From an uncultured Enterobacteriaceae bacterium (GTDB lineage Bacteria > Desulfobacterota > Binatia > UBA12015): DNA of 64,000 nt. This document shows, piece by piece, positions 21,541-58,025 of this stretch (position 1 is the stretch's first letter; each line of letters starts with the position of its first letter). The stretch covers positions 2,902-66,901 of the forward strand of contig CAZGUU010000001.1 of NCBI GenBank assembly GCA_964529315.1. The letters are read 5' to 3'. The notes beneath the pieces were generated by a model, which had not been told where the DNA came from, did no database searches, and worked only from the letters and a program-made list of their open reading frames with translations. The position numbers and the translations under genes were made by a program.

Positions 21541-25399
<3,859 letters not shown>

Positions 25400-25417
25400 G
25401 CGGACGCGGCGGGAACC

Positions 25418-25816
25418 ATGCGACTCGTCGTCGTCACACCAGAGCGGCTCGTCCTCGACACCGACGTCGAGGAAGTCTACGCCCCTGGCGTCATGGGCCA
25501 GTTCGGCGTGCTTCCCAAGCACGTCACCTTCCTGACGGCGCTCGCCAGCGGCGAGCTCCGCTACCGGGAGCGCGGCACCGACCGCTACATGGCCGTGAGC
25601 GGCGGTGTGTGCGAGGTGCTCGACGACACGGCGACGATCCTCGCCGATACGGCGGAGGCCGCTTCCGAGATCGACGTGGATCGCGCATCGGCCGCGGAGA
25701 AGCGCGCCATCGATGCGCTGTCCCGAGCTGCGGCGGGCAGCCTGGAGCACACCGAGCTGCGCGCTGCGGCCGAGCGAGCGGCAAACCGCCGGGCCGTCGC
25801 CGCTCGAGCGAGGTAG
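25418..25816 (+). CDS. atpC: F0F1 ATP synthase subunit epsilon
   Basis: 132 aa, starting MRLVVVTPERLVLDTDVEEVYAPGVMGQFGVLPKH. Confidence 0.9.
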   Translation: MRLVVVTPERLVLDTDVEEVYAPGVMGQFGVLPKHVTFLTALASGELRYRERGTDRYMAVSGGVCEVLDDTATILADTAEAASEIDVDRASAAEKRAIDALSRAAAGSLEHTELRAAAERAANRRAVAARAR

Positions 25817-25826
25817 CTGCTCCGCT

Positions 25827-26948
25827 TCAGGCGGCTCCGGCCGCCATGCGACGCTGGGCCGTCAGGACGAATTCGACGTCGGTCGATCGCTCGGGCCACT
25901 CGACGCGCACCTCTTCACCCCCGACCAGCTGCCGCGAGGCAATCAGGCGCGCCAGCGGCGAAACCAGCCGTCGCTCGACGACCCGCTTCATGGGCCGTGC
26001 TCCGTTCTCGGGGTCCGTGCCTTCCGCGAGGAGCCTGCGGATCGCCTGATCGCTGTAGCGGATCGACAAGGCGACGCCGCGCCGCGCCAGACGTCCCTCG
26101 ACCTTCTGGATCTCGAGCCGCAGGATCTCCTCGAGCTGGCTGGGGCTCAGCCGGTGGAAGACGATCTTGTGATCGATTCGGTTCAGGAATTCGGGGGCGA
26201 ACGTCCGCCGGGCCGTCCACAGAACCGCCTTCTCGACCCGGCGCTGGACCGCGGTCTCGGCTTCCCCGGTTCGACCGACGAACCCCATCGGCGGCGAGAG
26301 AATCTCTCCCAGCGAGCGGCTGCCGACGTTGCTCGTGAGAAAGATGAAGCAGCGCGACAGGTCGACCTCTTTGTTGTTCCCCAGCGTGAGCCTGGCCTTG
26401 TCCAGGACTCCCAGCAGGAGCTGCCAGAGCGAATCGCTCGCCTTCTCGATCTCGTCGAAGAGCAGCAGGGTGAACGGGCAGCTCGCCGTCTGGTGCCGTG
26501 TGATGTTCGCGCTCGAGAGGTAGGGCGTGGTCTCCTGATGCCCGAGGTAGCCCGGTGGCGACCCGATCAGGCGAGAGATCTCGTGGCTGTGGCTGAACTC
26601 CGCGCAGTCGATCTTGAGCATCGCCTTGCGGTCGCCGAAGCACGCGTCGGCGAACGCCTCGACCAGGTTCGTCTTGCCGGTACCGGTCGGGCCAAGGAAC
26701 AGGAAGGAGCCCAGCGGCCGCTCGGAGCTGGCCAGGCCAGAGCACTGGATCTGATAGGCTTCCGTCACCGCATCGACGGCCGGATCCTGGCCGACGACCC
26801 GTTCGCGGAGCGCGCGGCGAAACGCCTCGACGTCCTCGCCGAGGCGGTCGGGGAGAAGCCGCTCTCGGACCCGCTGTGCTCGCCGGGCACCGCGATCGCC
26901 TGCACGCCGCCCCGATCCCGTCCTCTGTCTGTTGCTTTCGGGCACCAC
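25827..26948 (-). CDS. Stand-alone ClpA/ClpB D2-type AAA+ ATPase, with no N-domain, D1 or middle domain
   Basis: Trimmed to a GTG at 26948, preceded by GGAGGA. Walker A GPTGTGKT. Walker [11 protein letters not shown]. Sensor-1 TSN. Sensor-2 GARPMKR. D2-small domain. Aligns closely with the D2 of the ClpB at 55401. The 140 aa upstream in the track ORF are low-complexity. Confidence 0.75.
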   Translation of the reverse strand: MVPESNRQRTGSGRRAGDRGARRAQRVRERLLPDRLGEDVEAFRRALRERVVGQDPAVDAVTEAYQIQCSGLASSERPLGSFLFLGPTGTGKTNLVEAFADACFGDRKAMLKIDCAEFSHSHEISRLIGSPPGYLGHQETTPYLSSANITRHQTASCPFTLLLFDEIEKASDSLWQLLLGVLDKARLTLGNNKEVDLSRCFIFLTSNVGSRSLGEILSPPMGFVGRTGEAETAVQRRVEKAVLWTARRTFAPEFLNRIDHKIVFHRLSPSQLEEILRLEIQKVEGRLARRGVALSIRYSDQAIRRLLAEGTDPENGARPMKRVVERRLVSPLARLIASRQLVGGEEVRVEWPERSTDVEFVLTAQRRMAAGAA

Positions 26949-27063
26949 TCGTCCTCCAACGTAACCAGAAGTCGGCACGGCCGGCCCAACCCTTGAGCCG
27001 CGACGTGAGGACAGGCCGCCTGGCCCCTTCACTCCCCGGGATCTGCGTGCCATAGCCACAGGG

Positions 27064-27804
27064 ATGAAGCTGCACGGCAAGACGGCCTTCGTGACGGGTG
27101 GCTCGCGCGGGATCGGCCGCGCCATCGCGCTCGCCTTCGCCCGAGAAGGGGCAGACGTCGCCCTGAGCTTCCGCCGCGATCTGGCCGCTGCCCAGGCCAC
27201 GGTCGAGGAGATCCGAGCCCTGGGCCGGCGTGCGAGCCACCACCAGGCGGACGTCGCCGACCCCGCGGCCGTCGAGCGCATCTTCCAGGAGGCGGGCGCC
27301 ACCTTCGGCTCGTTCGACGTCGTCGTCGCGAACTCGGGCATCGCCTCTCGGACGGCGTCGGTGACGGACACCGACGTCGCCTACTGGAAGCGGGTTCTCG
27401 AGGTGGATCTCGACGGCGTCTTCTACACCTGCAAGTGGGGCGTCCCGTTGCTGCGAGCGCACGGCAGCGTGATCATCATCTCGTCGATCGGCGCCGACCT
27501 CTGCGCGCCCTTCGGCGCGCCCTACTACGTCGCCAAGGCGGGGGCCAATGCCCTGACCAAGGTCCTGGCCAAGGAGCTGGCTTTCGAGCAGAAGCGCGCC
27601 AACTGCATCGCCCCGGGCGTGATCGCTACCGACATGGGCAACCGCCTCGTGGCGGCCTTGGGCGAGGGCGTCCTGAGCAGCATCCCGCTGGGTCGGCTCG
27701 GCCAACCCGAGGACATCGGCGCCGCAGCCGTGTTCCTCGCCTCGGACGAGGCGAGCTTCATCACCGGCAAGATCCTGCGCATCGACGGCGGCGCGTTCAT
27801 GTAG
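27064..27804 (+). CDS. SDR-family oxidoreductase (3-oxoacyl-ACP reductase-like)
   Basis: TGGSRGIGRAIA (TGxxxGxG). Catalytic YxxxK in PYYVAKAG. 246 aa. Confidence 0.85.
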   Translation: MKLHGKTAFVTGGSRGIGRAIALAFAREGADVALSFRRDLAAAQATVEEIRALGRRASHHQADVADPAAVERIFQEAGATFGSFDVVVANSGIASRTASVTDTDVAYWKRVLEVDLDGVFYTCKWGVPLLRAHGSVIIISSIGADLCAPFGAPYYVAKAGANALTKVLAKELAFEQKRANCIAPGVIATDMGNRLVAALGEGVLSSIPLGRLGQPEDIGAAAVFLASDEASFITGKILRIDGGAFM

Positions 27805-27970
27805 CCGCGGATCGGGGCCGAGGGCCGCCGAGCTCCCGGCAATCGCCCGGGGCATTTCCTGTGCTTCCCACGCGTGTGCTCGCGCCATCCTCTGGAGTCC
27901 CGCGAGCAGGCCCGTTTTCGGGTACCTTGCCTGGCTGACTCGGCGAACCCATTGACAATGCGCGTCATAT

Positions 27971-27989
27971 TATACTAAACGTTCAGTAT
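27971..27989. promoter_or_regulatory. 18-bp imperfect palindrome ATACTAAACGTTCAGTAT (8 of 9 pairs) running into the TetR start codon; a candidate TetR operator. TTGACA lies about 14 nt upstream
   Basis: Seen directly. AT-rich island in GC-rich DNA. My coordinates are uncertain by 1 nt. Confidence 0.45.
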
Positions 27990-28632
27990 GGCTTCCCCGG
28001 CAACGGGACGAGCGCGTCGATCCGAGCCTGGTCGAGACGGCCTGATTGCCACCGCGATCGACTGCTTCGCTCGGCAAGGCTACGCCGGAACTTCCATCGA
28101 CCGCATCGCCCGAGCGGCCGGGGTCACCAAGGGAGCGCTCTACTACCACTTCCGCGACAAGGAGCACCTGCTCTTCGAGGCCGTGAAGGAGCGTATCGGG
28201 GCCTTCGAGCGGTACGTGGTGCAGCACGTGGAAAAGGCAGAGGACCCCGTGGGGGCGCTACGCGAGATCGCCTCGATCTGTGCCAAGAACGCGGCTCGCG
28301 ACAACCACCGGCGCTTCATCCTGACGTTGATGGTCGAGGCCCTCGACACGAACGCGGCACTCTCGGTCGAGTTTCGCGAAATGCTGCACCGCTTTCGCAG
28401 CTTTCACCGCCACCTGATCCGCAGGGGCGTGGAGCGCGGCCTCTTCCGCGCAGACATCGATGTCGCCGTGGCCGCGGAGACCTTCGTCAGCGGGATCCTC
28501 GGTGCCGAGATCCAGTACTACCAGGATCCGCAGGCGATCGACATCGATCGATCGCTGGACCTTCACGTGGAGCAGTTCCTCGCCTGGATTGCCGTGCCTC
28601 CTGCGCGGCACCAGCCCGGAGAAGGATCGTGA
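27988..28632 (+). CDS. TetR/AcrR-family transcriptional regulator
   Basis: HTH GYAGTSIDRIARAAGVTKGALYYHF. First gene of a TetR-ACAD-ACAD block. Confidence 0.85.
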   Translation: MASPATGRARRSEPGRDGLIATAIDCFARQGYAGTSIDRIARAAGVTKGALYYHFRDKEHLLFEAVKERIGAFERYVVQHVEKAEDPVGALREIASICAKNAARDNHRRFILTLMVEALDTNAALSVEFREMLHRFRSFHRHLIRRGVERGLFRADIDVAVAAETFVSGILGAEIQYYQDPQAIDIDRSLDLHVEQFLAWIAVPPARHQPGEGS

Positions 28633-28633
28633 G

Positions 28634-29737
28634 ATGTTCGATCTCGAGTTGACCCAAGAGCAGCGCCTCATGCGCGACACCATCGCAAGCTTCGCCCGCG
28701 ACGAGATTCGCCCCGTGGCTCGCGACTGTGACGAGCGCGGAATCATTCCGCCCCAGCTGGCCGAGAAGGGCTTCGGCCTGGGCCTCATCCACTCACCTCT
28801 CCCAGAGGCCTACGGCGGGTTCGGCGAGGAACGATCCGCGGTCACCGGAGCCATCATCGCCGAGGAGCTCGGGTGGGGCAGCCTGGCCATTGCCCTCCAC
28901 CTGCTCGCGCCGCGTCTGGTCGCCTACCCGGTCCTCGACATCGGAACGCAAGAGCAGCGCGAGCGGCTTCTGCCGCGCTTCTCCTCCGGATTCCATCCGG
29001 CTTCGGCAGCCATCGTCGAGCCGCGCTTCGACTTCGACACCGTCCGCTTCGCCACCACCGCGCGCCGCGACAACGGCAGCTACGTCCTGGACGGAGCCAA
29101 GTGCTTCGTCCCGCTCGCCGCCGACGCCGACCTGGTGCTGGTCTTCGCGCAGCTCCTCGAGGGAGACGGCGACCGCCGTGCAGCCTTCCTCGTGGATCGC
29201 GGCGCCGAGGGACTGCTGGTCGGCGACCGCGAGAGCAACATGGGCGCCAAGGCCCTCGCCACGCACGAGATCACGCTCGACGGCGTGCGAATCCCGGCCT
29301 CGGCCCGGCTCGGTGGCGAAACCGGGGAGGGCCTCGAGCGACTGCTCGACCACACGCGGGTCGGCCTCGCTGCCCTGGCGATCGGCGTGGCTCGAGGGGC
29401 CTTCGAGTATGCCCGGGACTATGCGAAGGACAGAAAGGCGTTCGGCGTTCCCATCGCGCAGAAGCAGGCCATCGCCTTCATGCTCGCGGAGATGGCCATC
29501 GAGATCGACGCCGCGCGCTTGCTCGTCTGGGAGGCTGCCTGGGCCCTGGACCGAGGCCGCAAGGCCACCCGCGAGTGCATCTTGGCCAAGCGATACGCCT
29601 CGAATGCCGTCCTGAAGGTCGCGGACAATGCGCTGCAGGTTCTGGGCGGCCACGGCTACGTCCGCGACCACCCCGTGGAGCTCTGGCTGCGCGATGCCCG
29701 TGGGTTTGTGTCTTTCGAGGGCCTGGCCATCGTCTGA
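28634..29737 (+). CDS. Acyl-CoA dehydrogenase family protein
   Basis: Start trimmed to MFDLELTQEQRL, RBS GGAGAAGGA. The C-terminal FEG carboxylate is present. Confidence 0.85.
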   Translation: MFDLELTQEQRLMRDTIASFARDEIRPVARDCDERGIIPPQLAEKGFGLGLIHSPLPEAYGGFGEERSAVTGAIIAEELGWGSLAIALHLLAPRLVAYPVLDIGTQEQRERLLPRFSSGFHPASAAIVEPRFDFDTVRFATTARRDNGSYVLDGAKCFVPLAADADLVLVFAQLLEGDGDRRAAFLVDRGAEGLLVGDRESNMGAKALATHEITLDGVRIPASARLGGETGEGLERLLDHTRVGLAALAIGVARGAFEYARDYAKDRKAFGVPIAQKQAIAFMLAEMAIEIDAARLLVWEAAWALDRGRKATRECILAKRYASNAVLKVADNALQVLGGHGYVRDHPVELWLRDARGFVSFEGLAIV

Positions 29738-29814
29738 GCCGGCGGCTCGGCGTGTCCCGTTTGGGGTTCCTGGGAGCCCGCAAGCGCCGAGTCCTACGCA
29801 TCGAGGAGTGGAGC

Positions 29815-31038
29815 ATGATCGACTTCGAGCTTTCCCAAGGCGTGCAGAACCAGCGTCAGATGGTGCACATGGTCGCCGAGCAGATGATGCGGCCCATCTC
29901 GCGCGAGTTCGACGAGCGCGAGCACGAGAAGCCGTGGGATTTCCTCAAGACCATGTGGGCCGTTTCGGGAAGCTCACCGATCGGCAACGACAGCAGCCAG
30001 AAGGCTCGGGCTGGCGATGCGCCACGGGAATCCAACCTCGGCTCATGCGTGACGATCGAGGAGCTCTCCTGGGGTGACGCCGGCCTCTACCTGACGATCC
30101 CCAACGCCGGTCTGGGCGGAGCTGCAGTGATGGCCGCCGGCACGCCGGAGCAGAAGCAGCGCTTCCTGGCGCCGTTCAAGAGCGGCGAGCCGAAGTGGGG
30201 CGCCATGGCCATCACCGAGCCCCACTGCGGCTCCGATTCGGCGGCGCTCCAGACGACCGCGGTGCGCGACGGCGACCACTGGGTGCTCAACGGCACCAAG
30301 ATCTACTGCACCTCCGGCTTGATGGCCGCGGAGAAGTCGGACGGCTTCGTCGTCGTGTGGGCCACCATCGACAAGTCGGCCGGCCGCGCGGGCATCAAGT
30401 CGTTCGTGGTCGAGGCTCACACCCCGGGAATGAAGGTCATCAAGTGCGAGAACAAGCTCGGGATTCGAGCCTCGGATACGGCGATGATCGTCTTCGAGGA
30501 CTGCCGTATCCCGCTCGACAACCTGCTCGGATCCGCCGAGGTGAAGACCACCACCGAGGGATTCAAGGGTGCCATGGCCACGTTCGATGCCACCCGGCCA
30601 TTGGTGGCGGCGAGCGCAATCGGCATCGGTCGCGCTGCCCTCGACTTCACCCGCGAGGCTCTGGAGCGTGCGGGTATCCGCATCCGCTATGCGGCGAGCA
30701 GCGCCACGCTGACGGCGGTCGAGCGCGACTTCATGGAGATGGAGGCCGAGCTCCAGGCAGCTCGGCTGCTGACCTGGCGCGCTGCCTGGATGATGGACCG
30801 AGGACAGCGAAACAGCCTCGAGGCGTCGATGGCCAAGGCCAAGGCGGGCCTCGCGGTCACCCGAGTGACGCAAAAAGCGGTCGAGATGCTCGGCCCACTC
30901 GGCTACTCCAGGCGGCTGCTCCTCGAGAAGTGGATGCGCGACGCGAAGATCAACGACATCTTCGAGGGCACCCAGCAGATCAACATGCTGGTCGTCGCCA
31001 GGCGGATCCTGGGCTACTCGAGCAAGGAGCTGAGCTAG
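29815..31038 (+). CDS. Acyl-CoA dehydrogenase family protein (second of a pair)
   Basis: Start trimmed to MIDFELSQGVQ, RBS GAGGAG. Contains AITEPHCGSD and DIFEGTQQI. Confidence 0.85.
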   Translation: MIDFELSQGVQNQRQMVHMVAEQMMRPISREFDEREHEKPWDFLKTMWAVSGSSPIGNDSSQKARAGDAPRESNLGSCVTIEELSWGDAGLYLTIPNAGLGGAAVMAAGTPEQKQRFLAPFKSGEPKWGAMAITEPHCGSDSAALQTTAVRDGDHWVLNGTKIYCTSGLMAAEKSDGFVVVWATIDKSAGRAGIKSFVVEAHTPGMKVIKCENKLGIRASDTAMIVFEDCRIPLDNLLGSAEVKTTTEGFKGAMATFDATRPLVAASAIGIGRAALDFTREALERAGIRIRYAASSATLTAVERDFMEMEAELQAARLLTWRAAWMMDRGQRNSLEASMAKAKAGLAVTRVTQKAVEMLGPLGYSRRLLLEKWMRDAKINDIFEGTQQINMLVVARRILGYSSKELS

Positions 31039-39086: not shown

Positions 39087-41612
39087 TCAGCTCGCAGGCT
39101 CGGGACCACCTCCATCCTCCTCCAGCTCGCCGCTCGCCACGTCATCCTCGACCTCGCCGCCGTTGGCCGACGGCTCCGCTGGAGATCCGACGCGCTCTTC
39201 CATGTCTGCGACCCGTGCCAGGCTGACGACTCGCTCGCCCTCGTCCACCTCGAGCAGCTTCACGCCTTGCGTGTTCCGGCCGATCACGCGGATGTCGCTC
39301 GCTCGCAGGCGGATCAAGCGTCCGCGGTCGGTCACCAGCATCACCTCGTCGTCTTCGCCGATCTGGGCTACCCCGACCACGCCTCCGGTCTTCTCCGTGA
39401 CCTTCATCGTGATGATGCCCTTGCCTCCGCGCGACTGCAGCCGGTACTCCTCGAGCCCGCTGCGCTTTCCCTGCCCGTTCTCCGACACCGAGAGCACCGC
39501 AGCCTGCGGCGAGAGGATGTCGACGCTCACGACCTCGTCTTCTGGATCGAGCGAAACGCCCCTCACTCCACCGGCGCTCCGGCCCATGGCGCGGACGTCG
39601 GATTCCCGGAAGCGGATCGCCTGTCCGCCCCGGGTCGAAAGCAGTACCTCCTGCTCGGGGTCGACCAGCCGCACCCCGACGAGCCGATCCCCGTCGTCGA
39701 GACCGATGGCGATGATGCCTGCCGCGCGCCGGTTCGCATACGCCATCAGGTCGGTCTTCTTGACCATGCCCCTGCGGGTCGCGAAGAGCAGGTAGCGGCC
39801 GGGCTCGAACGCGGCGATGGGCAGGAAGGCCGAGAGCTTCTCGTCCGCTGCGAGCTGCAGCAGGTTGACGATGGCCTTGCCTCGCGCGGTGCGACCCCCT
39901 GGCGGGATCTCGTGCACCTTGCGCCAGTGGACGCGACCCGAGGTGGTGAAGAACAGGATGCTGTCGTGGCTCGAGGCGACGAAGAGGTGCGCGATGAAGT
40001 CGGCCTCGCGGGCTGGCGCGCCCACCTTACCACGCCCGCCGCGACGCTGGGCTCGGTACTCCGAGGCTGCGATGCGCTTGATGTACCCGGCGTGCGACAC
40101 CGTGACCGCCATGTCCTCGCGCGGGATCAGATCCTCGACGGAGAGATCCTCCGCCCTGCCGACGATCGTCGTGCGCCGGCGGTCGCCGTACTGCCCTCGG
40201 ATCTCGATCAGCTCGCCGCGGATGATCGCGTCCACCTCGGCGCGGTCCGCCAGGATGGCCTTGAGGCGGGCGATCAGGGCTTCCGTCTCGCGGTGCTCGT
40301 CGAGGATCTTGTCGCGCTCGAGGTTGGTCAACCGCTGCAGCCGCATGTCCAGGATGGCCTGCGCCTGGATCTCGGAGAGGCCGAAGCTCGCCATCAGACC
40401 CGAGCGCGCGGCGGCCGGGCTCGCCGACGAGCGGATCAGGGCAATGACCGCGTCGAGGTTCTCGAGGGCGATCTTGAGCCCGTCGAGGATGTGCAGGCGC
40501 TCTTCGGCCTTGCGCAGGTCGAACACGGTCCGCCGGGTCACCACCTCGCGGCGATGGTCGAGGAAGACCTGCAGCGCGTCGCGCAGGTTGAGCAGGCGGG
40601 GCCTGCCCTCGACGATCGCCAGCAGGTTGACGCCGAAGGACTCCTGCATGGCCGTCAGCTTGAACAGCTGGTTCAGGACGACCTGGCCCACGGCGTCCTT
40701 CTTGAGCTCGATCACGATCCGCATGCCATCGCGATCGGACTCGTCGCGCAGGTCCGAGATGCCCTCGATCTTCTTCTCGTTGACCAGCTCGGCGATGCGC
40801 TCGATGAGGCGCGCCTTGTTCACCTGATAGGGGATCGCGTCGACCACGATGGTCTCGCGGCCGGTGCGTGCGTCCTCCTCGATCTCGGCGCTGGCCCTCA
40901 TCTGGAGGATGCCGCGTCCCGTGGCGTAAGCCTCGCGAATGGGTGCGCTGCCGCAGATGAACCCACCCGTCGGGAAGTCGGGCCCGGGGATCCAGCGCAT
41001 CAGGTCGAGCGGCGTGAGCGAGGGATCGTCGAGCAGCGCGATGCAGCCGTCCACCAGCTCGGTCAGGTTGTGCGGCGGGACGTTGGTGGCCATCCCGACG
41101 GCGATGCCGGAGGCCCCATTGAGGAGTAGGTTGGGGATCTTGGCCGGAAGGACGACCGGCTCGCGCTCGGTGTCGTCGTAGTTGGCCGCGAAGTCGACGG
41201 TTTCGCGGTCGATGTCGGCCAAGAGCTCGCTCGCGATGCGTGCGAGGCGGATCTCCGTGTAGCGCATCGCCGCCGGCGCGTCGCCGTCGACCGAGCCGAA
41301 ATTGCCCTGCCCGTCTACCAACGGGTAGCGCATCGAAAAATCTTGCGCGAGGCGGACAATCGTGTCGTACACGGCGGCGTCGCCGTGCGGGTGGTACTTG
41401 CCGATCACGTCTCCGACGATGCGAGCCGACTTCTTGTAGCCCCGGTTCCAATCGACCCCGAGCTCGTTCATCGCGTAGAGCACGCGCCGGTGGACGGGCT
41501 TGAGGCCGTCGCGAGCGTCGGGAAGAGCGCGGCCGATGATCACGCTCATTGCGTAGTCCATGTAGGACTGACGCATCTCGTCTTCGATGCTGATCGGGAT
41601 TCGGTCGGCCAT
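39087..41612 (-). CDS. gyrA: DNA gyrase subunit A
   Basis: 841 aa. N-terminus [43 protein letters not shown], active-site Tyr region, acidic C-terminal tail. Confidence 0.97.
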
Positions 41613-41638
41613 CGGCTGGTTCTACGCTTCGCGCCTGC

Positions 41639-44089
<2,451 letters not shown>

Positions 44090-44207
44090 TTAACAGTATT
44101 TGCCGAAAGGTCGCTTATAGCAGACCGAGACGCCGAAAAGAAGCCCCGGCCAGGCCCGCGCACACGCTCCAGCGAACCCCTGCGATCCATCTCGGAATCG
44201 CCGCGGA

Positions 44208-45317
44208 TCAGAGTCGCATCGGCATCACGACGTAGCGGTAGGAGTCGTCTTCGTCGCTGCGGATGACCCCTGGGCTGGCATCGTCGATCAGCGAGATCTC
44301 GACCCGCTGGTCGTCCGGCAACACGGCCAGAACGTCGGTGAGATAGCGCGAGTTGAAGCCGACGGCGAGCTCGGCTCCCTCGTAGGCGACCTCGATCTCT
44401 TCGCTCGCCTCGCCGAAGTCCGGGCTGCTCGCCGAAACCGCGAGCTGTCCCGTGGTTGCTTGGAGCTTGACACCCCGCGCTCGGTCGCTGGCCACGACCG
44501 AAACTCGCCGCAATGCGGAGAGCAGCTCGCTCTTGTCGATCGCGATCTGGTGGCTGGCGGCCTTGGGAATCACCTGCTCGTAGTTCGGGAACTCGCCATC
44601 GACCAGACGCATGACCAGCTCGACGTTGGCCCGCACTACTCGCGCCGTGTTGCTGCCCACCGACAGGCGAGCCCTCCCTTCCTCGCCGACGATGAGCTTC
44701 TGGACTTCCACGAGGCCCTTTCGCGGCAGGATGGCGCCCTTCGTCTCGCCGCTTCCCTGCGCGCTCCCCTCCTCGACGAGAGCCAGACGATGGCCATCGG
44801 TGCCGACCAAGCGCAGGACGTTCTCGCTCTTCGACAGCAGAACCCCGCCCAGGTGCGGCCGGGTCTCGTCGGTAGACACGGCAAACAGGGTGCACTCGAT
44901 CATGCGAGCCAGCGTGTCGCAGGGCAGATCGACGACGACCCCGTCCTTCTCGTCCACTTGCGGGAAGCTCGGGAAGTCGCCTGCAGGCAGCCCGACCAGC
45001 TTCACGCGCGAGCGGCCCGACACGATCTCGACGAAGTGGTTCTCGAGCAGCCGCACCGTGACGTCACCCGGCTTCAGCTCGCGCACGAACTCGAAGAGCT
45101 TGCGCGCGCCGACCGTCGCTGCGCCCGATTCCCGGATCTTCGCCGTGCACCTGCGGCGGAGGTGCACCTCGAGGTCCGTCGCTGCGATCGACAAATCCTT
45201 GCCCGAGGCATCGAGCAGGACATTGGCGAGGATCGGAAGCGTATTGCGCCGCTCGACCACGCCCTGCGTGAGCGAGAGGCCCTGCAAGAACTCTCCTCGG
45301 TCGACCGAGAACTCCAT
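44208..45317 (-). CDS. dnaN: DNA polymerase III beta sliding clamp
   Basis: Trimmed to MEFSVDRGEFLQGLSL, with the strong RBS GGGGGGGAAG upstream. 369 aa, three-domain clamp. Confidence 0.93.
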   Translation of the reverse strand: MEFSVDRGEFLQGLSLTQGVVERRNTLPILANVLLDASGKDLSIAATDLEVHLRRRCTAKIRESGAATVGARKLFEFVRELKPGDVTVRLLENHFVEIVSGRSRVKLVGLPAGDFPSFPQVDEKDGVVVDLPCDTLARMIECTLFAVSTDETRPHLGGVLLSKSENVLRLVGTDGHRLALVEEGSAQGSGETKGAILPRKGLVEVQKLIVGEEGRARLSVGSNTARVVRANVELVMRLVDGEFPNYEQVIPKAASHQIAIDKSELLSALRRVSVVASDRARGVKLQATTGQLAVSASSPDFGEASEEIEVAYEGAELAVGFNSRYLTDVLAVLPDDQRVEISLIDDASPGVIRSDEDDSYRYVVMPMRL

Positions 45318-45387
45318 CACTTCCCCCCCGTTGGACGAGCACCCCCCGTGAGCGTGCTGCACCGCACTCCCCACGTGCCGCCGTCTT

Positions 45388-45584
45388 CTCTATTCTTCTT
45401 TATACTATTCAAATAGAGGTAGTAGAGCCTGTGGACACGGTGGACAAGGGATTCAACGCCGCGGTTCCCGGTCGCATTCACCTGTGGGAATGAAGGCGCC
45501 GCTGCCATCGGGCGCGAAGATCGCTCTGGTCGGCCGTGGATCTCCCCAGGTTGAGGGCGAGCAGCCCACAGGGAATCCACAAGC
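45388..45584. other. oriC: Candidate oriC core in the dnaA-dnaN intergenic region: a 40-bp AT-rich segment followed by tandem DnaA-box-like 9-mers
   Basis: TCTATTCTTCTTTATACTATTCAAATAGAGGTAGTAGAG (45388-45428). TGTGGACAC (45430-38) and GGTGGACAA (45439-47) abut each other. GAATCCACA at 45573-81. Each is 7-8 of 9 to TTATCCACA or TTGTCCACA. Confidence 0.45.
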
Positions 45585-45652
45585 GCTCGAAGAAGGAGCC
45601 AGTCCCCGGACCGAAGCCCTCTACGCTTCGCCGGGGCCGTGGCAGCGTCGCG

Positions 45653-47002
45653 TCAGGATGGCTGCTTCGTCAGGCTGCTCTCGAGCCCCTGGATGGTCGC
45701 GCGAAGCGCTGGGTCCCCGTCCAATCGGCGTGAGATGACGGTCTGGGCGTGGATCACCGTCGAGTGATCCCGCCCTCCGAACTTCGCGCCGATGACCGGG
45801 AAGGACGCGGCGACGAGCTTGCGCGACAGGTACATGGCAATCTGTCGCGGCACCGAGAGGTTCTGTGTCCTGCGCTTCGACTTGATCTCCGTCAGAGAGA
45901 GGCCGAAGTGCGCGCAAACCGCCTGCTGGACGTCGTCGATCGTCAGCTCCCGGCGGCGCTCGCGAAGGTGAGGCTGCAGCACGCTGCGTGCGAAGGGAAC
46001 CGTGATCTCGGCCCGTTGTAGAGAGGCCATCGCCCCGAGGCGCGTCAGGGCACCCTCGAGCTCGCGGACGTTGGTGGTGATCTCGGCGGCCATGAACGAG
46101 GCCACCTCCTCCGAGAGCGAGAACCCCTCCATCTCGGCCTTCTTTTGCAAGATGGCGACCCGGGTCTCCATCTCGGGAGCCTGGATGTCTGCGGTGAGGC
46201 CCCACTCGAAACGGTTGCGCAGGCGCTCCTCGAGGTCGGGGATGTCCTTGGGGAACTTGTCGGAGGTCAAGATGATCTGGCGGTGGCCTTCGTGCAGCGT
46301 GTTGAAAGTGTGGAAGAACTCCTCCTGGGTCCGCTCGCGGCCGGCGAGAAACTGGACGTCGTCGATGATCAGCAGGTCGACCTGACGCAGGCGGTTCTTG
46401 AACTCGTCCATGCGGTCGCGCCTGAGGGACGAGATCATGTCGTTCACGAACGACTCGCTCGCCATGTAGACGATCTTAGCCGAGGGGTTCCGCTTGAGGA
46501 CCGAGTGGCCGATGGCATTCACCAGGTGGGTCTTTCCCACCCCGACCCACCCGTAGACGAAGAGGGGGTTGTAGTGCTCGCCCGGCCGTCCCGCGACGGC
46601 GAGGGAAGCCGCGTGTGCGAACTCGTTGCTCGGCCCGACGACGAAGTTCTCGAAGGTGTAGTGCGGAACCAGATTGCCGACGCGAGCCGCCGGGCGTCGC
46701 ATCGCGGTGCGCGGCAGGGCCTCGGACTGGGTCTCGGCGGGCGCCGCGAAGAGCTCTCCCTGGTTGCCGTCGTCGACGCGAAAGACGATCTCCGGAGGCG
46801 GCTCGCTGCCGACTCGCAAGCAGGTCTTGATGGCGCCCAGGAAGTTGCGAGCGACCCAGTCGCGATAAAACTTGCTCGGTGCGCTGATGCACACCTTTCC
46901 GGCCCCGACCGAGGTGAATCGCAGGGGCTTGATCCAGGTCTCGAAGTTCCCCTCGCCGACCCGGTCGCGCAGGGCGACGCGGGCCTCCTCCCAGCTTTCC
47001 AT
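45653..47002 (-). CDS. dnaA: Chromosomal replication initiator protein DnaA
   Basis: 449 aa. AAA+ GxxGxGKTHL. DNA-binding domain IV at the C-terminus. RBS GAGGGG. Confidence 0.97.
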   Translation of the reverse strand: MESWEEARVALRDRVGEGNFETWIKPLRFTSVGAGKVCISAPSKFYRDWVARNFLGAIKTCLRVGSEPPPEIVFRVDDGNQGELFAAPAETQSEALPRTAMRRPAARVGNLVPHYTFENFVVGPSNEFAHAASLAVAGRPGEHYNPLFVYGWVGVGKTHLVNAIGHSVLKRNPSAKIVYMASESFVNDMISSLRRDRMDEFKNRLRQVDLLIIDDVQFLAGRERTQEEFFHTFNTLHEGHRQIILTSDKFPKDIPDLEERLRNRFEWGLTADIQAPEMETRVAILQKKAEMEGFSLSEEVASFMAAEITTNVRELEGALTRLGAMASLQRAEITVPFARSVLQPHLRERRRELTIDDVQQAVCAHFGLSLTEIKSKRRTQNLSVPRQIAMYLSRKLVAASFPVIGAKFGGRDHSTVIHAQTVISRRLDGDPALRATIQGLESSLTKQPS

Positions 47003-47031
47003 ACGGGTTACCCCTCTGCCGGCAAGAGGTT

Positions 47032-47185
47032 ATTCACAGGAATGTGCACACCTGTGGATGATCGAATATTCCACCCGAATTCCGGTGGTTTGCACCCACC
47101 AGCGCCAGGCCATTTTCACCTCGAACGACACTCTCTGAAGGGCGCCCGTTGGTTCGTGTTCCGGGACGGGCGGCCGAGATCCACA
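47032..47185. promoter_or_regulatory. DnaA-box-like motifs in the dnaA 5' region (autoregulation and/or a second oriC candidate), followed by an A-rich stretch at 47200-47400
   Basis: TTATTCACA (47032-40, 8/9). TGTGGATGA, which is the reverse of TCATCCACA (47055-63, 8/9). AGATCCACA (47177-85, 7/9). Confidence 0.45.
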
Positions 47186-47409
47186 CCGTGAGAAAACAAT
47201 GAGCCGTGGGATGCGAGAAAATGTCGTGCCTGCAGGCGCGAGGGCGCTTCTCTAGCGCCCGACCTTTCGCAGTTGCAAGAAGAAAAGCGAAAGCAGATGA
47301 GAAAGCTCCCGATATTGCACGAGAAAAAACTTCCGAGCGCGATTTCCTTGACGCTGCTGCGGGAGGTTGGTAAGCGCCGGTCTCCCTTTTCCCCATTGGA
47401 CATCGCAAC

Positions 47410-48690
47410 TTGCGAGAGGCATCACGAAAACTGCTGGCCCGCGCATCGCGGGTGTTGCCAGCTGGGGTAAACAGCCCGGTTCGCGCGTGGCGCGCGGTGG
47501 GAGGCGATCCCCCCTTCATCATTCGCGGTGAGGGAGTGCGCGTCGTCGATGCCGACGGCAACTCCTACCTCGATCTCGTCGGCGCCTGGGGCCCGCTCGT
47601 TGCGGGGCACGCGCCACCTCCCGTGGTCGCCGCGGTAGTCGAAGCCGTGCGGCGGGGAGCCGGCTTTGGTGCGCCGACACCCGTCGAGGTCGATCTCGCG
47701 GAGCGAGTGACGCAAGCCTTTCCCACGATCGAGAGGTTGCGTCTCGTCACCTCCGGAACCGAGGCGACGATGACCGCGATCCGCATCGCGCGGGCTGCGA
47801 CGGGCCGGTCGCGGCTGATCAAGTTCAATGGCTGCTATCACGGTCACAGCGACGACCTCTTGGTGCGCGCGGGGTCCGGCGCGGCGACGTTTGGGATCCC
47901 AGACAGCGCGGGCGTGCCCGAGGAGGCATCGCGGCTGACCAGCGTCGTGGAATACAACGATCTCCCCGGATTCCGTTCGGCCGTGCGAGAGGGGGCCCCG
48001 GTGGCGGCGGTGATCCTGGAGCCGATCGCCGCCAACATGGGGGTCGTTCCCCCGGAGCCCGGCTTTCTGGAGGGAGTCGTCGAGGCGGCACACGACCAGG
48101 GTGCGCTGGTGATTTTCGACGAGGTGATCTCGGGATTCCGGGTGGCGCGTGGTGGGGCACAGCAACTCTACGGCGTCGCGGCCGATCTCACCTGCCTCGG
48201 CAAGATCATCGGCGGCGGCTTGCCGGTCGGAGCGGTGGGCGGCCGAGCCGAGTTGCTCGATCTCCTTGCTCCGCTCGGGCCCGTCTACCAGGCGGGCACT
48301 CTCGCCGGAAACCCCGTGGCGTGTGCCGCCGGGTACGCGACACTGGAGTTGCTCACACCGGAGGCATACGCACGGCTCGAGGAGGCCGGGGCTTTTCTCG
48401 AGCGCGCCCTGAGAGGCGCGCTCGAGGATTCGTCGGTGATCGGCTGCGTGCAGCGCGCGGGCTCTCTTCTCACCATCTTTTTCGGGGTCGAGCGGGTGCG
48501 GAACTTCGTCGAGGCACAAGCCTGCGATACTGCGGCTTTCGCCCGCTTCTTCCGGAGGATGTTCGAGCGAGGCGTATACCTTCCGCCGTCTCAGTTCGAG
48601 GCGTGGTTCCTGAGCCTCGCGCATCGGCAAGAAGACCTCGATGAAATCGTGGCGGCTGCCCGTTCGAGCCTCGCTGGATCGAACGGTTGA
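47410..48690 (+). CDS. hemL: Glutamate-1-semialdehyde 2,1-aminomutase
   Basis: TTG start. ASRKLLARASRVLPAGVNSPVRAW aligns with the E. coli HemL N-terminus. PLP lysine context GKIIGGGLPVGA. Confidence 0.92.
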   Translation: MREASRKLLARASRVLPAGVNSPVRAWRAVGGDPPFIIRGEGVRVVDADGNSYLDLVGAWGPLVAGHAPPPVVAAVVEAVRRGAGFGAPTPVEVDLAERVTQAFPTIERLRLVTSGTEATMTAIRIARAATGRSRLIKFNGCYHGHSDDLLVRAGSGAATFGIPDSAGVPEEASRLTSVVEYNDLPGFRSAVREGAPVAAVILEPIAANMGVVPPEPGFLEGVVEAAHDQGALVIFDEVISGFRVARGGAQQLYGVAADLTCLGKIIGGGLPVGAVGGRAELLDLLAPLGPVYQAGTLAGNPVACAAGYATLELLTPEAYARLEEAGAFLERALRGALEDSSVIGCVQRAGSLLTIFFGVERVRNFVEAQACDTAAFARFFRRMFERGVYLPPSQFEAWFLSLAHRQEDLDEIVAAARSSLAGSNG

Positions 48691-48956
48691 GTTCTTCGCC
48701 GGCCGTGCCCCAAGGTAAGCAGCCGACGCCCGCCCAGCGGCGGCGTGAGCTGGCGATCCAGATGACGGCGCTCGGCCTCGAGTTTTCCGGGTCCGTTCTC
48801 GGCGGGCTCGGGCTGGGCTACTACCTCGACCAGTGGCTCGGGACGGAGCCGTGGTTGCTGATCCTTGCGACCTTCGGAGGCATGGGAGCCGCGGTGAGCC
48901 GCCTGATCGTGCTGACGAAGCGCTTTCAGCGGATTCGTGGGGATGGTGAGCGCTGA
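48687..48956 (+). CDS. atpZ: AtpZ-family small membrane protein encoded ahead of atpI
   Basis: LGLGYYLDQWLGTEPWLLILATFGGMGAAV matches the AtpZ DxWLGT motif. TTG start overlapping the hemL stop. An ATG at 48762 is an alternative start. Confidence 0.65.
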   Translation: MSSSPAVPQGKQPTPAQRRRELAIQMTALGLEFSGSVLGGLGLGYYLDQWLGTEPWLLILATFGGMGAAVSRLIVLTKRFQRIRGDGER

Positions 48957-49332
48957 AGAGCCGCGCATGGCCGGAGGCACGCCACGCGTCCTTCTCTGGC
49001 AGGCTCTCTTGACCGTCATTCTCGTGGGCGTTGTGGGTGCCAGCGGCCGGGGTTCCCCGGCCAGCGTGGCGCTCGGGGCGGCCTTGCTCGGGGGAAGCTT
49101 CCTCTTGCAAAGGTGGGCCGTCTCGGCCGCGCTGCGTGCACGGCCCCGGCCCGCGCTAGCGGTCGGCCTCTTCCTGCTGAAGCTCGGACTGCTGCTCGGC
49201 TTGGTGCTGGCGGGTCTGGGAAGCTCTCGGGTCGCCCCGATCTCCCTGGCGGCCGGGGCAACTACGCTGTGGCTCGCGATTCTCGTTGAGACATGCTACT
49301 GCGCCCGCCTGTCCCACGGTCGGGACGCCTGA
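48937..49332 (+). CDS. atpI: ATP synthase protein I (AtpI)
   Basis: 131 aa, four hydrophobic segments, immediately upstream of atpB. GTG start. An ATG at 48967 is an alternative start. Confidence 0.65.
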   Translation: MGMVSAEEPRMAGGTPRVLLWQALLTVILVGVVGASGRGSPASVALGAALLGGSFLLQRWAVSAALRARPRPALAVGLFLLKLGLLLGLVLAGLGSSRVAPISLAAGATTLWLAILVETCYCARLSHGRDA

Positions 49333-55193: not shown

Positions 55194-55400
55194 GGCTGGA
55201 CATCCTGCCTATCACGCTGGACGGATCGCTTCCACCCGAAGTCCGCCGTTGCTGATCCCCGTTTGGGAAACCTCGATAGCCCGGGCCGCGATCGCGCCGG
55301 TCAAGGGGGCTGCTCTTGTCCGGCGATCGATCGTGCTTAGTCTTGCCGCATTCGCCGTTGCCCTGTGCCGAGCGATCAGGGCGGGAAGAGGACCTCTCGC

Positions 55401-58025
<2,625 letters not shown>

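What the first reader, a model, noticed from the sequence alone, without database searches (positions are those of the whole stretch)
25827..26948. Free-standing ClpB-D2-like AAA+ ATPase convergent with the ATP synthase operon
The protein has only the second nucleotide-binding module of Hsp100 proteins. All catalytic motifs are intact (Walker A and B, sensor 1, sensor 2 GARPMKR, D2-small domain). It has no N-domain, D1, middle domain or ClpP-binding loop. A full ClpB is encoded at 55401 in the same window. D2-only relatives are uncommon, and their substrates and partners are unknown. The track ORF adds 140 aa of junk, so the true start is an inference (a GTG after GGAGGA).
Basis: partly seen in the sequence, partly recalled or inferred. 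Interest (0 to 1): 0.5.

Follow-up and report, generated by a model that had tools for sequence, protein, structure and literature searches.

The report
Single-ring Clp unfoldase with ClpP-docking loop
This is an intact gene for a one-ring protein-unfolding ATPase from a large, unstudied bacterial family, and it carries the short loop motif that related ATPases use to dock onto the ClpP protease, so it is probably a protease partner rather than a ClpB-like chaperone.

Summary
Window 25827..26948 (-) encodes a 373-aa protein made only of an Hsp100 D2 module (Pfam AAA_2 plus ClpB_D2-small). Walker A and B, the pore-loop Tyr, sensor 1, the Arg finger and sensor 2 are all intact. The GTG start after GGAGGA is supported. 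The 141 extra codons of the long ORF are the antisense shadow of an SDR gene, and there is no D1 remnant, so it is not a pseudogene.

- D2-only relatives are not uncommon. The best 120 database hits are almost all single-module proteins. At 50% clustering, about 110 of the best 150 clusters are single-module proteins, mostly from Acidobacteriota and Binatia. They form a clade apart from the D2 of two-ring ClpB and ClpC proteins.
- The protein does have a ClpP-binding-type loop. M221-G222-F223 sits at the tip of a flexible helix-loop-helix. G-F is invariant in 114 of 114 family members while its flanks vary. The family profile aligns it onto G672-F673 of the S. aureus ClpC AGF motif, which is required for ClpP binding.

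The best reading is a stand-alone, single-ring ClpP-partner unfoldase of an unnamed family. ClpP docking is inferred, not shown. There is no conserved neighbour gene and no adjacent clpP. I rate it a new variant of a known kind, of moderate interest.

The parts
25827..26948 (-). Coding sequence of the stand-alone D2-type AAA+ protein (373 aa, GTG start, TGA stop at 25827-25829)
   Evidence: a 373-aa protein 100% identical over full length is in public data (P0001); GC3 0.86
26952..26957 (-). Shine-Dalgarno-like GGAGGA, 3 nt before GTG 26948 and 6 nt before the alternative GTG 26945
   Evidence: sequence read
26949..27063 (.). 115-bp divergent intergenic region shared with the SDR gene (27064-27804 +). 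It presumably holds both promoters. No sigma-70 consensus match was found.
   Evidence: in-frame GC3 only 0.55
26841..26948 (-). N-terminal Arg-rich tail (residues 1-36), predicted disordered. It replaces a folded N-domain. Basic tails recur in the Binatia clade, followed by a conserved RL-x-P-x-RLG linker.
   Evidence: pLDDT 50-65; N-terminal alignment; L31 and P33 conserved in 109 of 114
26169..26720 (-). AAA_2 large ATPase subdomain (residues 77-260)
   Evidence: Pfam PF07724, E 5.5e-33
26670..26693 (-). Walker A GPTGTGKT (residues 86-93)
   Evidence: invariant G86 P87 T88 G89 G91 K92 T93
26541..26552 (-). Substrate-gripping pore-1 loop G-Y-L-G (residues 133-136), within the family signature SPPGYLGHxET
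   Evidence: Y134 invariant in 114 of 114; aligned to GYVG of ClpC and ClpB
26451..26468 (-). Walker B LLLFDE (residues 161-166)
   Evidence: L163 F164 D165 E166 invariant
26328..26330 (-). Sensor-1 Asn207 (TSN)
   Evidence: T205 S206 N207 invariant
26259..26297 (-). P-loop equivalent: a flexible loop (residues 218-230) between helices 210-217 and 231-249
   Evidence: AF2 model secondary structure; block-mean pLDDT dips to 83 (211-220) and 70 (221-230); flanks variable across the family
26280..26288 (-). Phi-G-F tripeptide M221-G222-F223, the putative ClpP H-site docking motif
   Evidence: G and F in 114 of 114, position 221 is L/M/F in 110 of 114; a Phi-G-[FYL] motif in 104 of 116 single-module proteins (111 cluster representatives plus 5 family members); the profile aligns G-F on ClpC G672-F673; AGF 671-673 is required for ClpP binding (PMC12521514)
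26178..26180 (-). Arg finger R257 (PEFLNRID)
   Evidence: invariant
25902..26150 (-). D2-small (lid) domain, residues 267-349
   Evidence: Pfam PF10431, E 1.3e-17
25995..26003 (-). Sensor-2 G316-A317-R318 (GARPMKR)
   Evidence: R318 invariant

Best explanation
The gene encodes an intact, monocistronic, single-module Hsp100/Clp ATPase from a large unnamed family. Each subunit is one D2-type AAA+ module plus a D2-small lid.

By analogy with ClpX, human CLPB/Skd3 and the D2 rings of ClpC and ClpA, six subunits should form one ring. That ring would grip polypeptides with the invariant GYLG pore-loop tyrosine and thread them using ATP hydrolysis.

The ring's flexible helix-loop-helix carries a family-invariant Phi-G-F tripeptide (MGF 221-223), at the position where ClpC, ClpA and ClpE carry the tripeptide that plugs into the hydrophobic pockets of ClpP. 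The most likely mechanism is therefore that the ring docks on ClpP and feeds it unfolded substrates. That would make it a minimal ClpC-D2-like alternative to ClpX, ClpA and ClpC, not a ClpB-like disaggregase.

Substrate choice would rest on the pore loops, on the Arg-rich disordered N-terminal tail, or on unlinked adaptors.

Shown: gene integrity, domain content, motif conservation, loop position, family size and lack of an operon partner. Inferred: hexamer formation, ClpP docking and the identity of substrates.
For: Domain content and intact motifs.

Model. The AF2 model has pLDDT 89 and pTM 0.85. The lower-confidence loop 218-230 lies between helices 210-217 and 231-249. The top Foldseek matches are ClpC chains taken from ClpC-ClpP complexes, and ClpB D2.

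Motif conservation. G222-F223 is invariant in 114 of 114 relatives, with L/M/F before it in 110 of 114 and variable flanks. The same tripeptide class occurs in 104 of 116 single-module proteins (111 representatives of different 50%-identity clusters plus 5 family members).

Loop survey across 89 loci. Every D2-only gene whose loop could be parsed has Phi-G-F (one has FGY); the single D2-only outlier L039 could not be parsed. Two-ring ClpC-type genes have L/V/I-G-F. ClpB-type genes, including the window's own ClpB, have none.

Alignment to a known docking motif. The family profile scores highest on S. aureus ClpC (296 bits, against 287 for the best ClpB). It aligns its G-F on G672-F673. G672D/F673D abolish the ClpC-ClpP interaction (PMC12521514).

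Precedent. The literature uses this loop as the ClpC-versus-ClpB discriminator and as the basis for inferring ClpP partnership (PMC10149685). A ClpB scaffold given a ClpA loop (BAP) binds ClpP (PDB 4d2q and 4d2x, listed).

Fused relatives. A sister subfamily fuses the module to a response-regulator receiver domain, which fits regulated activity.
Against: No clpP gene lies in the window or within 7-10 kb of any of about 55 D2-only loci. This was tested by tblastn with a ClpP probe validated against Pfam at 298 bits and by the Pfam-annotated contexts. This is weak evidence, because clpA and clpC are usually unlinked to clpP as well.

No physical or complex-level test was possible, since only single-chain prediction was available.

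The presence of ClpP in this organism could not be checked.

The NCBIfam ClpB model scores higher than the ClpA model (259 against 211 bits).

A conserved G-F at a loop tip could serve another contact, for example ring stacking or a different partner.
Confidence: 0.6

Rival explanations
1. It is a ClpP-independent single-ring remodeller or disaggregase, as the reader implied with 'ClpB-D2-like'. It would unfold or extract substrates and release them, like human CLPB/Skd3. The conserved G-F would then serve another contact.
For: The best NCBIfam alignment is to ClpB positions 561-847. Identity to the window's ClpB D2 is 40%. Single-NBD2 Skd3 structures match at E about 1e-34. There is no clpP linkage.
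Against: Every ClpB-type D2 surveyed lacks the tripeptide and has a shorter loop. The G-F invariance within an otherwise free-varying loop, and its exact profile alignment on the ClpC docking residues, would need another explanation. The family is not nested within ClpB in the NJ tree.
Confidence: 0.28
2. It is a component of an anti-phage defence system related to PDC-M37B or Dodola DolB.
For: PADLOC hits: PDC-M37B at E 1.3e-22 and DolB at E 2.5e-11. One distant relative has a TIR-D2-REC architecture (P0270).
Against: The hits cover only the generic ATPase core (query 37-219). No partner gene is present. The neighbours are housekeeping genes (ATP synthase, SDR, TetR, acyl-CoA dehydrogenases) and are syntenic in other Binatia. 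No neighbour is conserved across 30 loci. No family member occurs on plasmids or phages.
Confidence: 0.04
3. It is a pseudogene fragment of a two-ring ClpB or ClpC that lost D1 through a frameshift or deletion.
For: The ORF extends 141 codons upstream of the proposed start.
Against: The extension is antisense to a bona fide SDR gene and has a shadow-frame composition. No D1, N-domain or M-domain similarity occurs within 25-31 kb. Orthologues of the same length at 64-80% identity exist, with different upstream neighbours. All catalytic residues are conserved. The family forms its own deep clade.
Confidence: 0.02

Closest known systems
ClpC (and ClpE/ClpA) D2 ring with its P-loop
   Same: The same fold and motifs. 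The profile's best solved match is ClpC (296 bits). Both have a long flexible helix-loop-helix after sensor 1 with a Phi-G-F tip, and the family G-F aligns on ClpC G672-F673.
   Different: No N-domain, no D1 ring and no M-domain, so none of the known adaptor docking sites (MecA, McsB, ClpS) is present. It falls in a separate clade from all two-ring D2s. It also has family-specific signatures: DCAEFxHSHE, GYLGHxET and LWxLLLGILDK.
ClpX
   Same: A single-ring ClpP partner with an IGF loop and AAA_2 plus D2-small Pfam content. It is the functional analogue.
   Different: Only marginal sequence similarity (NCBIfam ClpX 21.8 bits against a cut-off of 359). No zinc-binding N-domain. Not encoded next to clpP.
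ClpB D2 and the engineered BAP variant
   Same: About 40% identity to ClpB D2. BAP shows that a ClpB scaffold given a ClpA-type loop binds ClpP (PDB 4d2q and 4d2x; PMC10149685).
   Different: Natural ClpB lacks the tripeptide, has a 29-residue loop against 42 here, and has an N-domain, D1 and M-domain for DnaK coupling.
Human CLPB/Skd3
   Same: A natural protein with a single NBD2-type module plus D2-small that works as a ring (PDB 7ttr and others, E about 1e-34).
   Different: Skd3 has ankyrin repeats and acts without a peptidase (my own knowledge). The sequence relationship is much more distant.
ClpI (ClpIa) of Actinomycetota
   Same: Another recently recognised Clp unfoldase class defined bioinformatically, whose ClpP partnership is inferred from the LGF loop (PMC10149685).
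   Different: ClpI has two rings plus an M-domain and is restricted to Actinomycetota. In that study, short sequences were set aside as possible fragments.
Plastid single-AAA ClpC/ClpM-like proteins
   Same: When only one AAA module is retained, it is D2 (preprint 10.64898/2026.05.20.726455).
   Different: Those are reduced plastid derivatives of ClpC. P. falciparum ClpM lacks the ClpP-binding site. The family here is bacterial, ancient and keeps the motif.

Membership tests
Hsp100/Clp D2-type AAA+ module (Pfam AAA_2 + ClpB_D2-small) | Both Pfam domains above the gathering score, in order | tested here: met
   AAA_2 114.8 bits (cut-off 27) and ClpB_D2-small 64.1 bits (cut-off 21.9)
Hsp100/Clp D2-type AAA+ module (Pfam AAA_2 + ClpB_D2-small) | Walker A, Walker B, sensor 1, Arg finger, sensor 2 and pore-loop Tyr | tested here: met
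   All present and invariant in the family
ClpB (TIGR03346 / PRK10865) | Full-length match above the curated cut-off (N-domain, D1, M-domain, D2) | tested here: not met
   258.9 bits against a cut-off of 1232.1; only model positions 561-847 align; no D1, N-domain or M-domain in the flanking DNA
ClpB (TIGR03346 / PRK10865) | Absence of a ClpP-docking tripeptide loop | tested here: not met
   MGF 221-223 lies in a 42-residue loop; the window's ClpB and all ClpB-type D2s surveyed lack it
ClpA/ClpC/ClpE class I ClpP partners | Two AAA+ rings plus an N-terminal domain | tested here: not met
   ClpA model 211 bits against a cut-off of 993, D2 region only; Pfam finds no Clp_N or AAA_lid_9
ClpA/ClpC/ClpE class I ClpP partners | Phi-G-F/L tripeptide at the tip of the D2 helix-loop-helix | tested here: met
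   reference motif from PMC12521514
ClpA/ClpC/ClpE class I ClpP partners | Physical binding to and activation of ClpP | not testable with these tools
   Needs multimer modelling or biochemistry
ClpX | Match to the ClpX equivalog model and a zinc-binding N-domain | tested here: not met
   21.8 bits against a cut-off of 359; the N-terminus is a disordered Arg-rich tail
Dodola DolB / PDC-M37B defence ATPases | Full-length model match plus the cognate partner gene nearby | tested here: not met
   Partial core-only matches; housekeeping neighbours and no conserved partner
Stand-alone D2 family defined here (unnamed) | Single D2 module of 330-430 aa, the signatures DCAEFxHSHE / SPPGYLGHxET / LWxLLLGILDK, and a Phi-G-F loop | tested here: met
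   The query carries all of these; the family alignment and clade are

The most novel reading that the evidence does not exclude
These stand-alone D2 proteins may be a previously unrecognised, widespread class of single-ring ClpP-activating unfoldases. Members occur in Acidobacteriota, Binatia, Thermodesulfobacteriota-labelled MAGs and many unlabelled metagenomic lineages. They use a basic disordered tail instead of a folded N-domain. In some lineages they are fused to a receiver domain or duplicated in tandem. This would add a new branch to the short list of ClpP partners (ClpX, ClpA, ClpC, ClpE, ClpIa).
Probability: 0.5. Interest if true: 0.65.

Novelty: new variant of a known kind. Interest (0 to 1): 0.5.

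Why it matters
ClpP proteases are central to bacterial proteostasis and are drug targets, and the set of ATPases known to drive them is small. A deep-branching, abundant family of one-ring D2 modules that keeps the ClpP-docking tripeptide would be an additional, minimal ClpP motor in major soil phyla. Databases currently label these proteins 'AAA family ATPase' or mislabel them ClpA/ClpB. Such a family would show that a D2 ring alone can be a natural protease partner, and it offers a compact system for studying D2 mechanics. If the loop instead serves another partner, that would be more surprising. For genome annotation, the practical lesson is that these proteins should not be called ClpB.

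Tried and rejected
Gene linkage to clpP.
The probe was validated as PF00574 at 298 bits. There were no hits.
- About 2 Mb of random genome would hold well under one clpP, so this is only weakly informative.

Conserved neighbours.
- All-against-all clustering of ORFs from 30 D2-only loci found nothing shared beyond lineage-specific synteny, at most 6 of 30 loci.
- Pfam-annotated contexts agree.

ATP synthase link.
- The synteny holds only within Binatia, and other genes interrupt it in L001 and L002. I rejected it as a functional link.

Mobile elements.
- There are no family members among plasmid or phage records. All hits there are below 43% identity and are canonical ClpB or ClpC.

RNA and regulatory scans.
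- Rfam found nothing in the window.
- There were no promoter-like or terminator-like sites, and only one short palindrome inside the gene.

Literature.
- Five searches found no description of a bacterial stand-alone D2 family (one search covered Binatia). One of these was swamped by dopamine-receptor papers.

Technical failures.
- An exact look-up of P0001 found no contig on record.
- The afdb50 fold library was unavailable.

Full report
**1. What is in the sequence**

The minus-strand ORF 25827..27371 (514 codons) exists. Only its last 373 codons look like a gene.

- GGAGGA lies at 26957-26952, followed by GTG at 26948 and a second GTG at 26945. There is no other in-frame start before the conserved core.
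- The gene body has GC1/2/3 of 0.69/0.48/0.86, like atpC and the SDR gene.
- The 114 bp upstream of the start has an in-frame GC3 of only 0.55.
- The stretch 27063-27371 has the 0.55/0.72/0.90 pattern of a shadow frame. It runs antisense through the divergent SDR gene 27064-27804 (adh_short_C2, E 5e-62).
- A 373-aa protein 100% identical to the query over its full length is already in NCBI-derived data (P0001). Forty-four of 114 aligned relatives start at the same alignment column.

Pfam finds AAA_2 (residues 77-260, E 5.5e-33) and ClpB_D2-small (267-349, E 1.3e-17) and nothing else.

The window's real ClpB is at 55365-58025 (+), with Clp_N, AAA, AAA_lid_9, AAA_2 and D2-small. A tblastn search with its N-domain, D1 and M-domain against window 25000-31000 finds nothing better than E = 0.7.

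**2. What the protein is**

NCBIfam aligns it only to the D2 part of the two-ring families (ClpB positions 561-847, ClpA 447-733, ClpV, ClpK, ClpG). All scores fall far below the curated cut-offs. ClpX scores only 21.8 bits.

Against solved structures, S. aureus ClpC D2 and E. coli ClpB D2 are equally close, at E about 1e-64. With the family profile, ClpC comes first: 296 bits against 287 for the best ClpB.

An AlphaFold2 model built on 54 relatives is confident (pLDDT 89, pTM 0.85). Confidence is low only in three places: the first 30 or so residues, the pore-loop region, and a loop at 218-230 flanked by helices 210-217 and 231-249. Its best Foldseek matches are ClpC chains from ClpC-ClpP complexes, and ClpB D2.

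All of the following are present and invariant in the family:
- Walker A (86-93)
- Walker B (161-166)
- pore-loop Tyr134
- sensor-1 Asn207
- Arg finger R257
- sensor-2 R318

**3. The family is large, old and separate**

They are not.

- The first database search scored 7914 hits at E <= 1e-10. Its best 120 are almost all single-module proteins, and 99 of them are 350-399 aa long. The named ones come from Binatia, Thermodesulfobacteriota, 'Deltaproteobacteria' and Terriglobales MAGs.
- In the library clustered at 50% identity, 111 of the best 150 representatives are 320-620 aa single-module proteins. Seventy-six of the aligned single-module set share less than 50% identity with each other.
- A profile of those representatives again returns only proteins of about 390 aa, mostly from Acidobacteriota.
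- In a neighbour-joining tree of D2 regions from 88 sequences, all but one of the D2-only proteins form one clade. The exception is the outlier L039, which sits on the two-ring side. The main clade is separated at the midpoint root from the D2 of all two-ring proteins, both ClpC-type and ClpB-type. No support values were computed.
- The family has its own signatures: DCAEFxHSHE, SPPGYLGHxET and LWxLLLGILDK.
- Sources name these proteins 'AAA family ATPase' or 'ATP-dependent Clp protease ATP-binding subunit ClpA/ClpB'. NCBIfam has no model for them.

**4. The key correction: a ClpP-docking-type loop is present**

Between sensor 1 (TSN) and FAPEF the protein has 42 residues. The window's ClpB has 29 and S. 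aureus ClpC has 37.

At the tip of that loop is M221-G222-F223.

- In 114 relatives, G and F are invariant and position 221 is L, M or F in 110 of 114. The neighbouring positions vary freely.
- Across 116 single-module proteins (111 cluster representatives plus 5 family members), 104 have Phi-G-[FYL] at this point. Their loops differ in length and sequence.
- In a survey of 89 loci, every D2-only gene whose loop could be parsed has the tripeptide (one has FGY); only the outlier L039 could not be parsed. Two-ring genes split into ClpC-like genes with L/V/I-G-F and ClpB-like genes without it.
- The S. aureus MecA/ClpC/ClpP structure paper places the AGF motif at residues 671-673, at the tip of the P-loop (660-680). 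It docks in the ClpP H-site, and G672D/F673D abolish the interaction (PMC12521514).
- The single-sequence alignment puts the query's MGF three residues from AGF, in the same loop. The family-profile alignment puts the family G-F exactly on G672-F673.
- The ClpI study states that the presence or absence of the LGF loop discriminates ClpC from ClpB, and it infers ClpP partnership from it (PMC10149685).
- PDB entries of BAP (ClpB carrying the ClpA loop) bound to ClpP show that a ClpB-type D2 scaffold with such a loop is sufficient for docking.

**5. Context**

The window is the origin region of a Binatia-like chromosome:
- gyrA, gyrB, dnaN and dnaA at 39-47 kb
- the GC-skew minimum at about 45 kb
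- synteny with two Binatia contigs, L001 and L002

The gene stands alone. It converges on atpC with a 10-bp gap, and diverges from the SDR gene across 115 bp. In L001 and L002 the upstream neighbour differs (an HTH protein, or TetR), and other genes separate it from the atp operon. So the atp adjacency reflects shared descent, not function.

In Acidobacteriota the neighbours are unrelated. Clustering the ORFs of 30 loci finds no shared neighbour.

No clpP lies within 7-10 kb of any locus (probe validated). That is the usual situation for clpA and clpC too, so it neither supports nor refutes the model.

There are no family members on plasmids or phages. The PADLOC hits (PDC-M37B, DolB) cover only the ATPase core.

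**6. Mechanism proposed**

Shown:
- An intact one-module D2 ATPase
- A gripping pore loop
- A conserved Phi-G-F loop at the ClpC position
- A disordered Arg-rich N-terminal tail that recurs in the Binatia clade, followed by a conserved RL-x-P-x-RLG linker

Inferred:
- Six subunits form one ring.
- The ring threads substrates.
- It docks on ClpP through the Phi-G-F loops, acting as a minimal ClpP motor.
- Selectivity is provided by the pore, the basic tail or unlinked adaptors.

Relatives fused to a receiver domain (L027, L040, P0202) and tandem paralogue pairs (L015, L016, L095) suggest regulated and possibly mixed rings.

I put the ClpP-partner reading at about 0.6. A ClpP-independent remodeller is at about 0.28. 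The defence and pseudogene readings are each below 0.05.

**7. Novelty and verdict**

I found no description of this bacterial family in the searchable literature. The nearest published parallels are:
- ClpI, which has two rings and occurs in Actinomycetota
- Plastid single-AAA ClpC/M proteins
- Human CLPB/Skd3

The gene is an ordinary member of its family. The family itself is an uncharacterised variant of a known kind of machine.

The 'ClpB-like, no ClpP loop, rare' framing should be replaced by 'ClpC-D2-like single ring with a ClpP-docking loop, common in soil phyla'. Interest is moderate (0.5).

Noticed in passing
window 39087-49110: This is the replication-origin neighbourhood: gyrA 39087-41612(-), gyrB 41639-44074(-), dnaN 44208-45374(-), dnaA 45653-47002(-). 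The cumulative GC skew reaches its minimum at about 44-46 kb, GC drops to 0.647, and AT skew is -0.23 at 48-50 kb. The long ORFs 47034-47561(-) and 47422-49110(-) have no Pfam hit and may be shadow ORFs over oriC.
   Followed up: partly
L015 10001-10981 and 11516-12520; L016 8533-9531 and 10001-11050; L095 2852-3862 and 4388-5416: Some Acidobacteriota-like genomes and a 'Candidatus Cybelea' genome carry two D2-only paralogues in tandem on the same strand. Both copies keep the Phi-G-F loop. This could mean mixed or stacked rings.
   Followed up: partly
L027 5452-7008; L040 9965-11395; also L028, L029, L108, L109; P0202: A sister subfamily, seen in the Bryobacteraceae loci L027-L029 and the Terriglobia locus L040, fuses the D2 module (with an FGF or YGF loop) to a C-terminal response-regulator receiver domain. 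This suggests phosphorylation-controlled unfoldase activity.
   Followed up: partly
P0270 (610 aa, representative library): One relative has a TIR - D2 - receiver-domain architecture, which resembles defence or signalling proteins.
   Followed up: no
P0137 (4189 aa), P0148 (4896 aa), P0207 (7819 aa), P0249, P0259: Giant proteins with three D2-like stretches each rank among the best representatives. Their P-loop regions lack the tripeptide. Their origin is unknown.
   Followed up: no
L003 11120-11773, L006 6117-6890, L018 9176-9862, L029: A related ECF-type sigma-70 gene lies near the D2-only gene in 4 of 30 loci. It is directly upstream in L006. L003 also has a SpoIIE phosphatase / anti-sigma kinase / STAS partner-switching set. 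This may hint at sigma or anti-sigma factors as substrates, or it may be coincidence.
   Followed up: no
window 25817-25826: The stop codons of atpC (+) and the AAA+ gene (-) are only 10 bp apart, and no terminator-like hairpin was detected in 25600-27200. Convergent transcripts may therefore overlap.
   Followed up: partly
L170 5228-9170: In one acidobacterial contig the D2-only gene follows rpoN (split into two calls) and a ribosome hibernation factor gene (Ribosom_S30AE_C), downstream of lptC/lptA-like and lptB-like genes.
   Followed up: no
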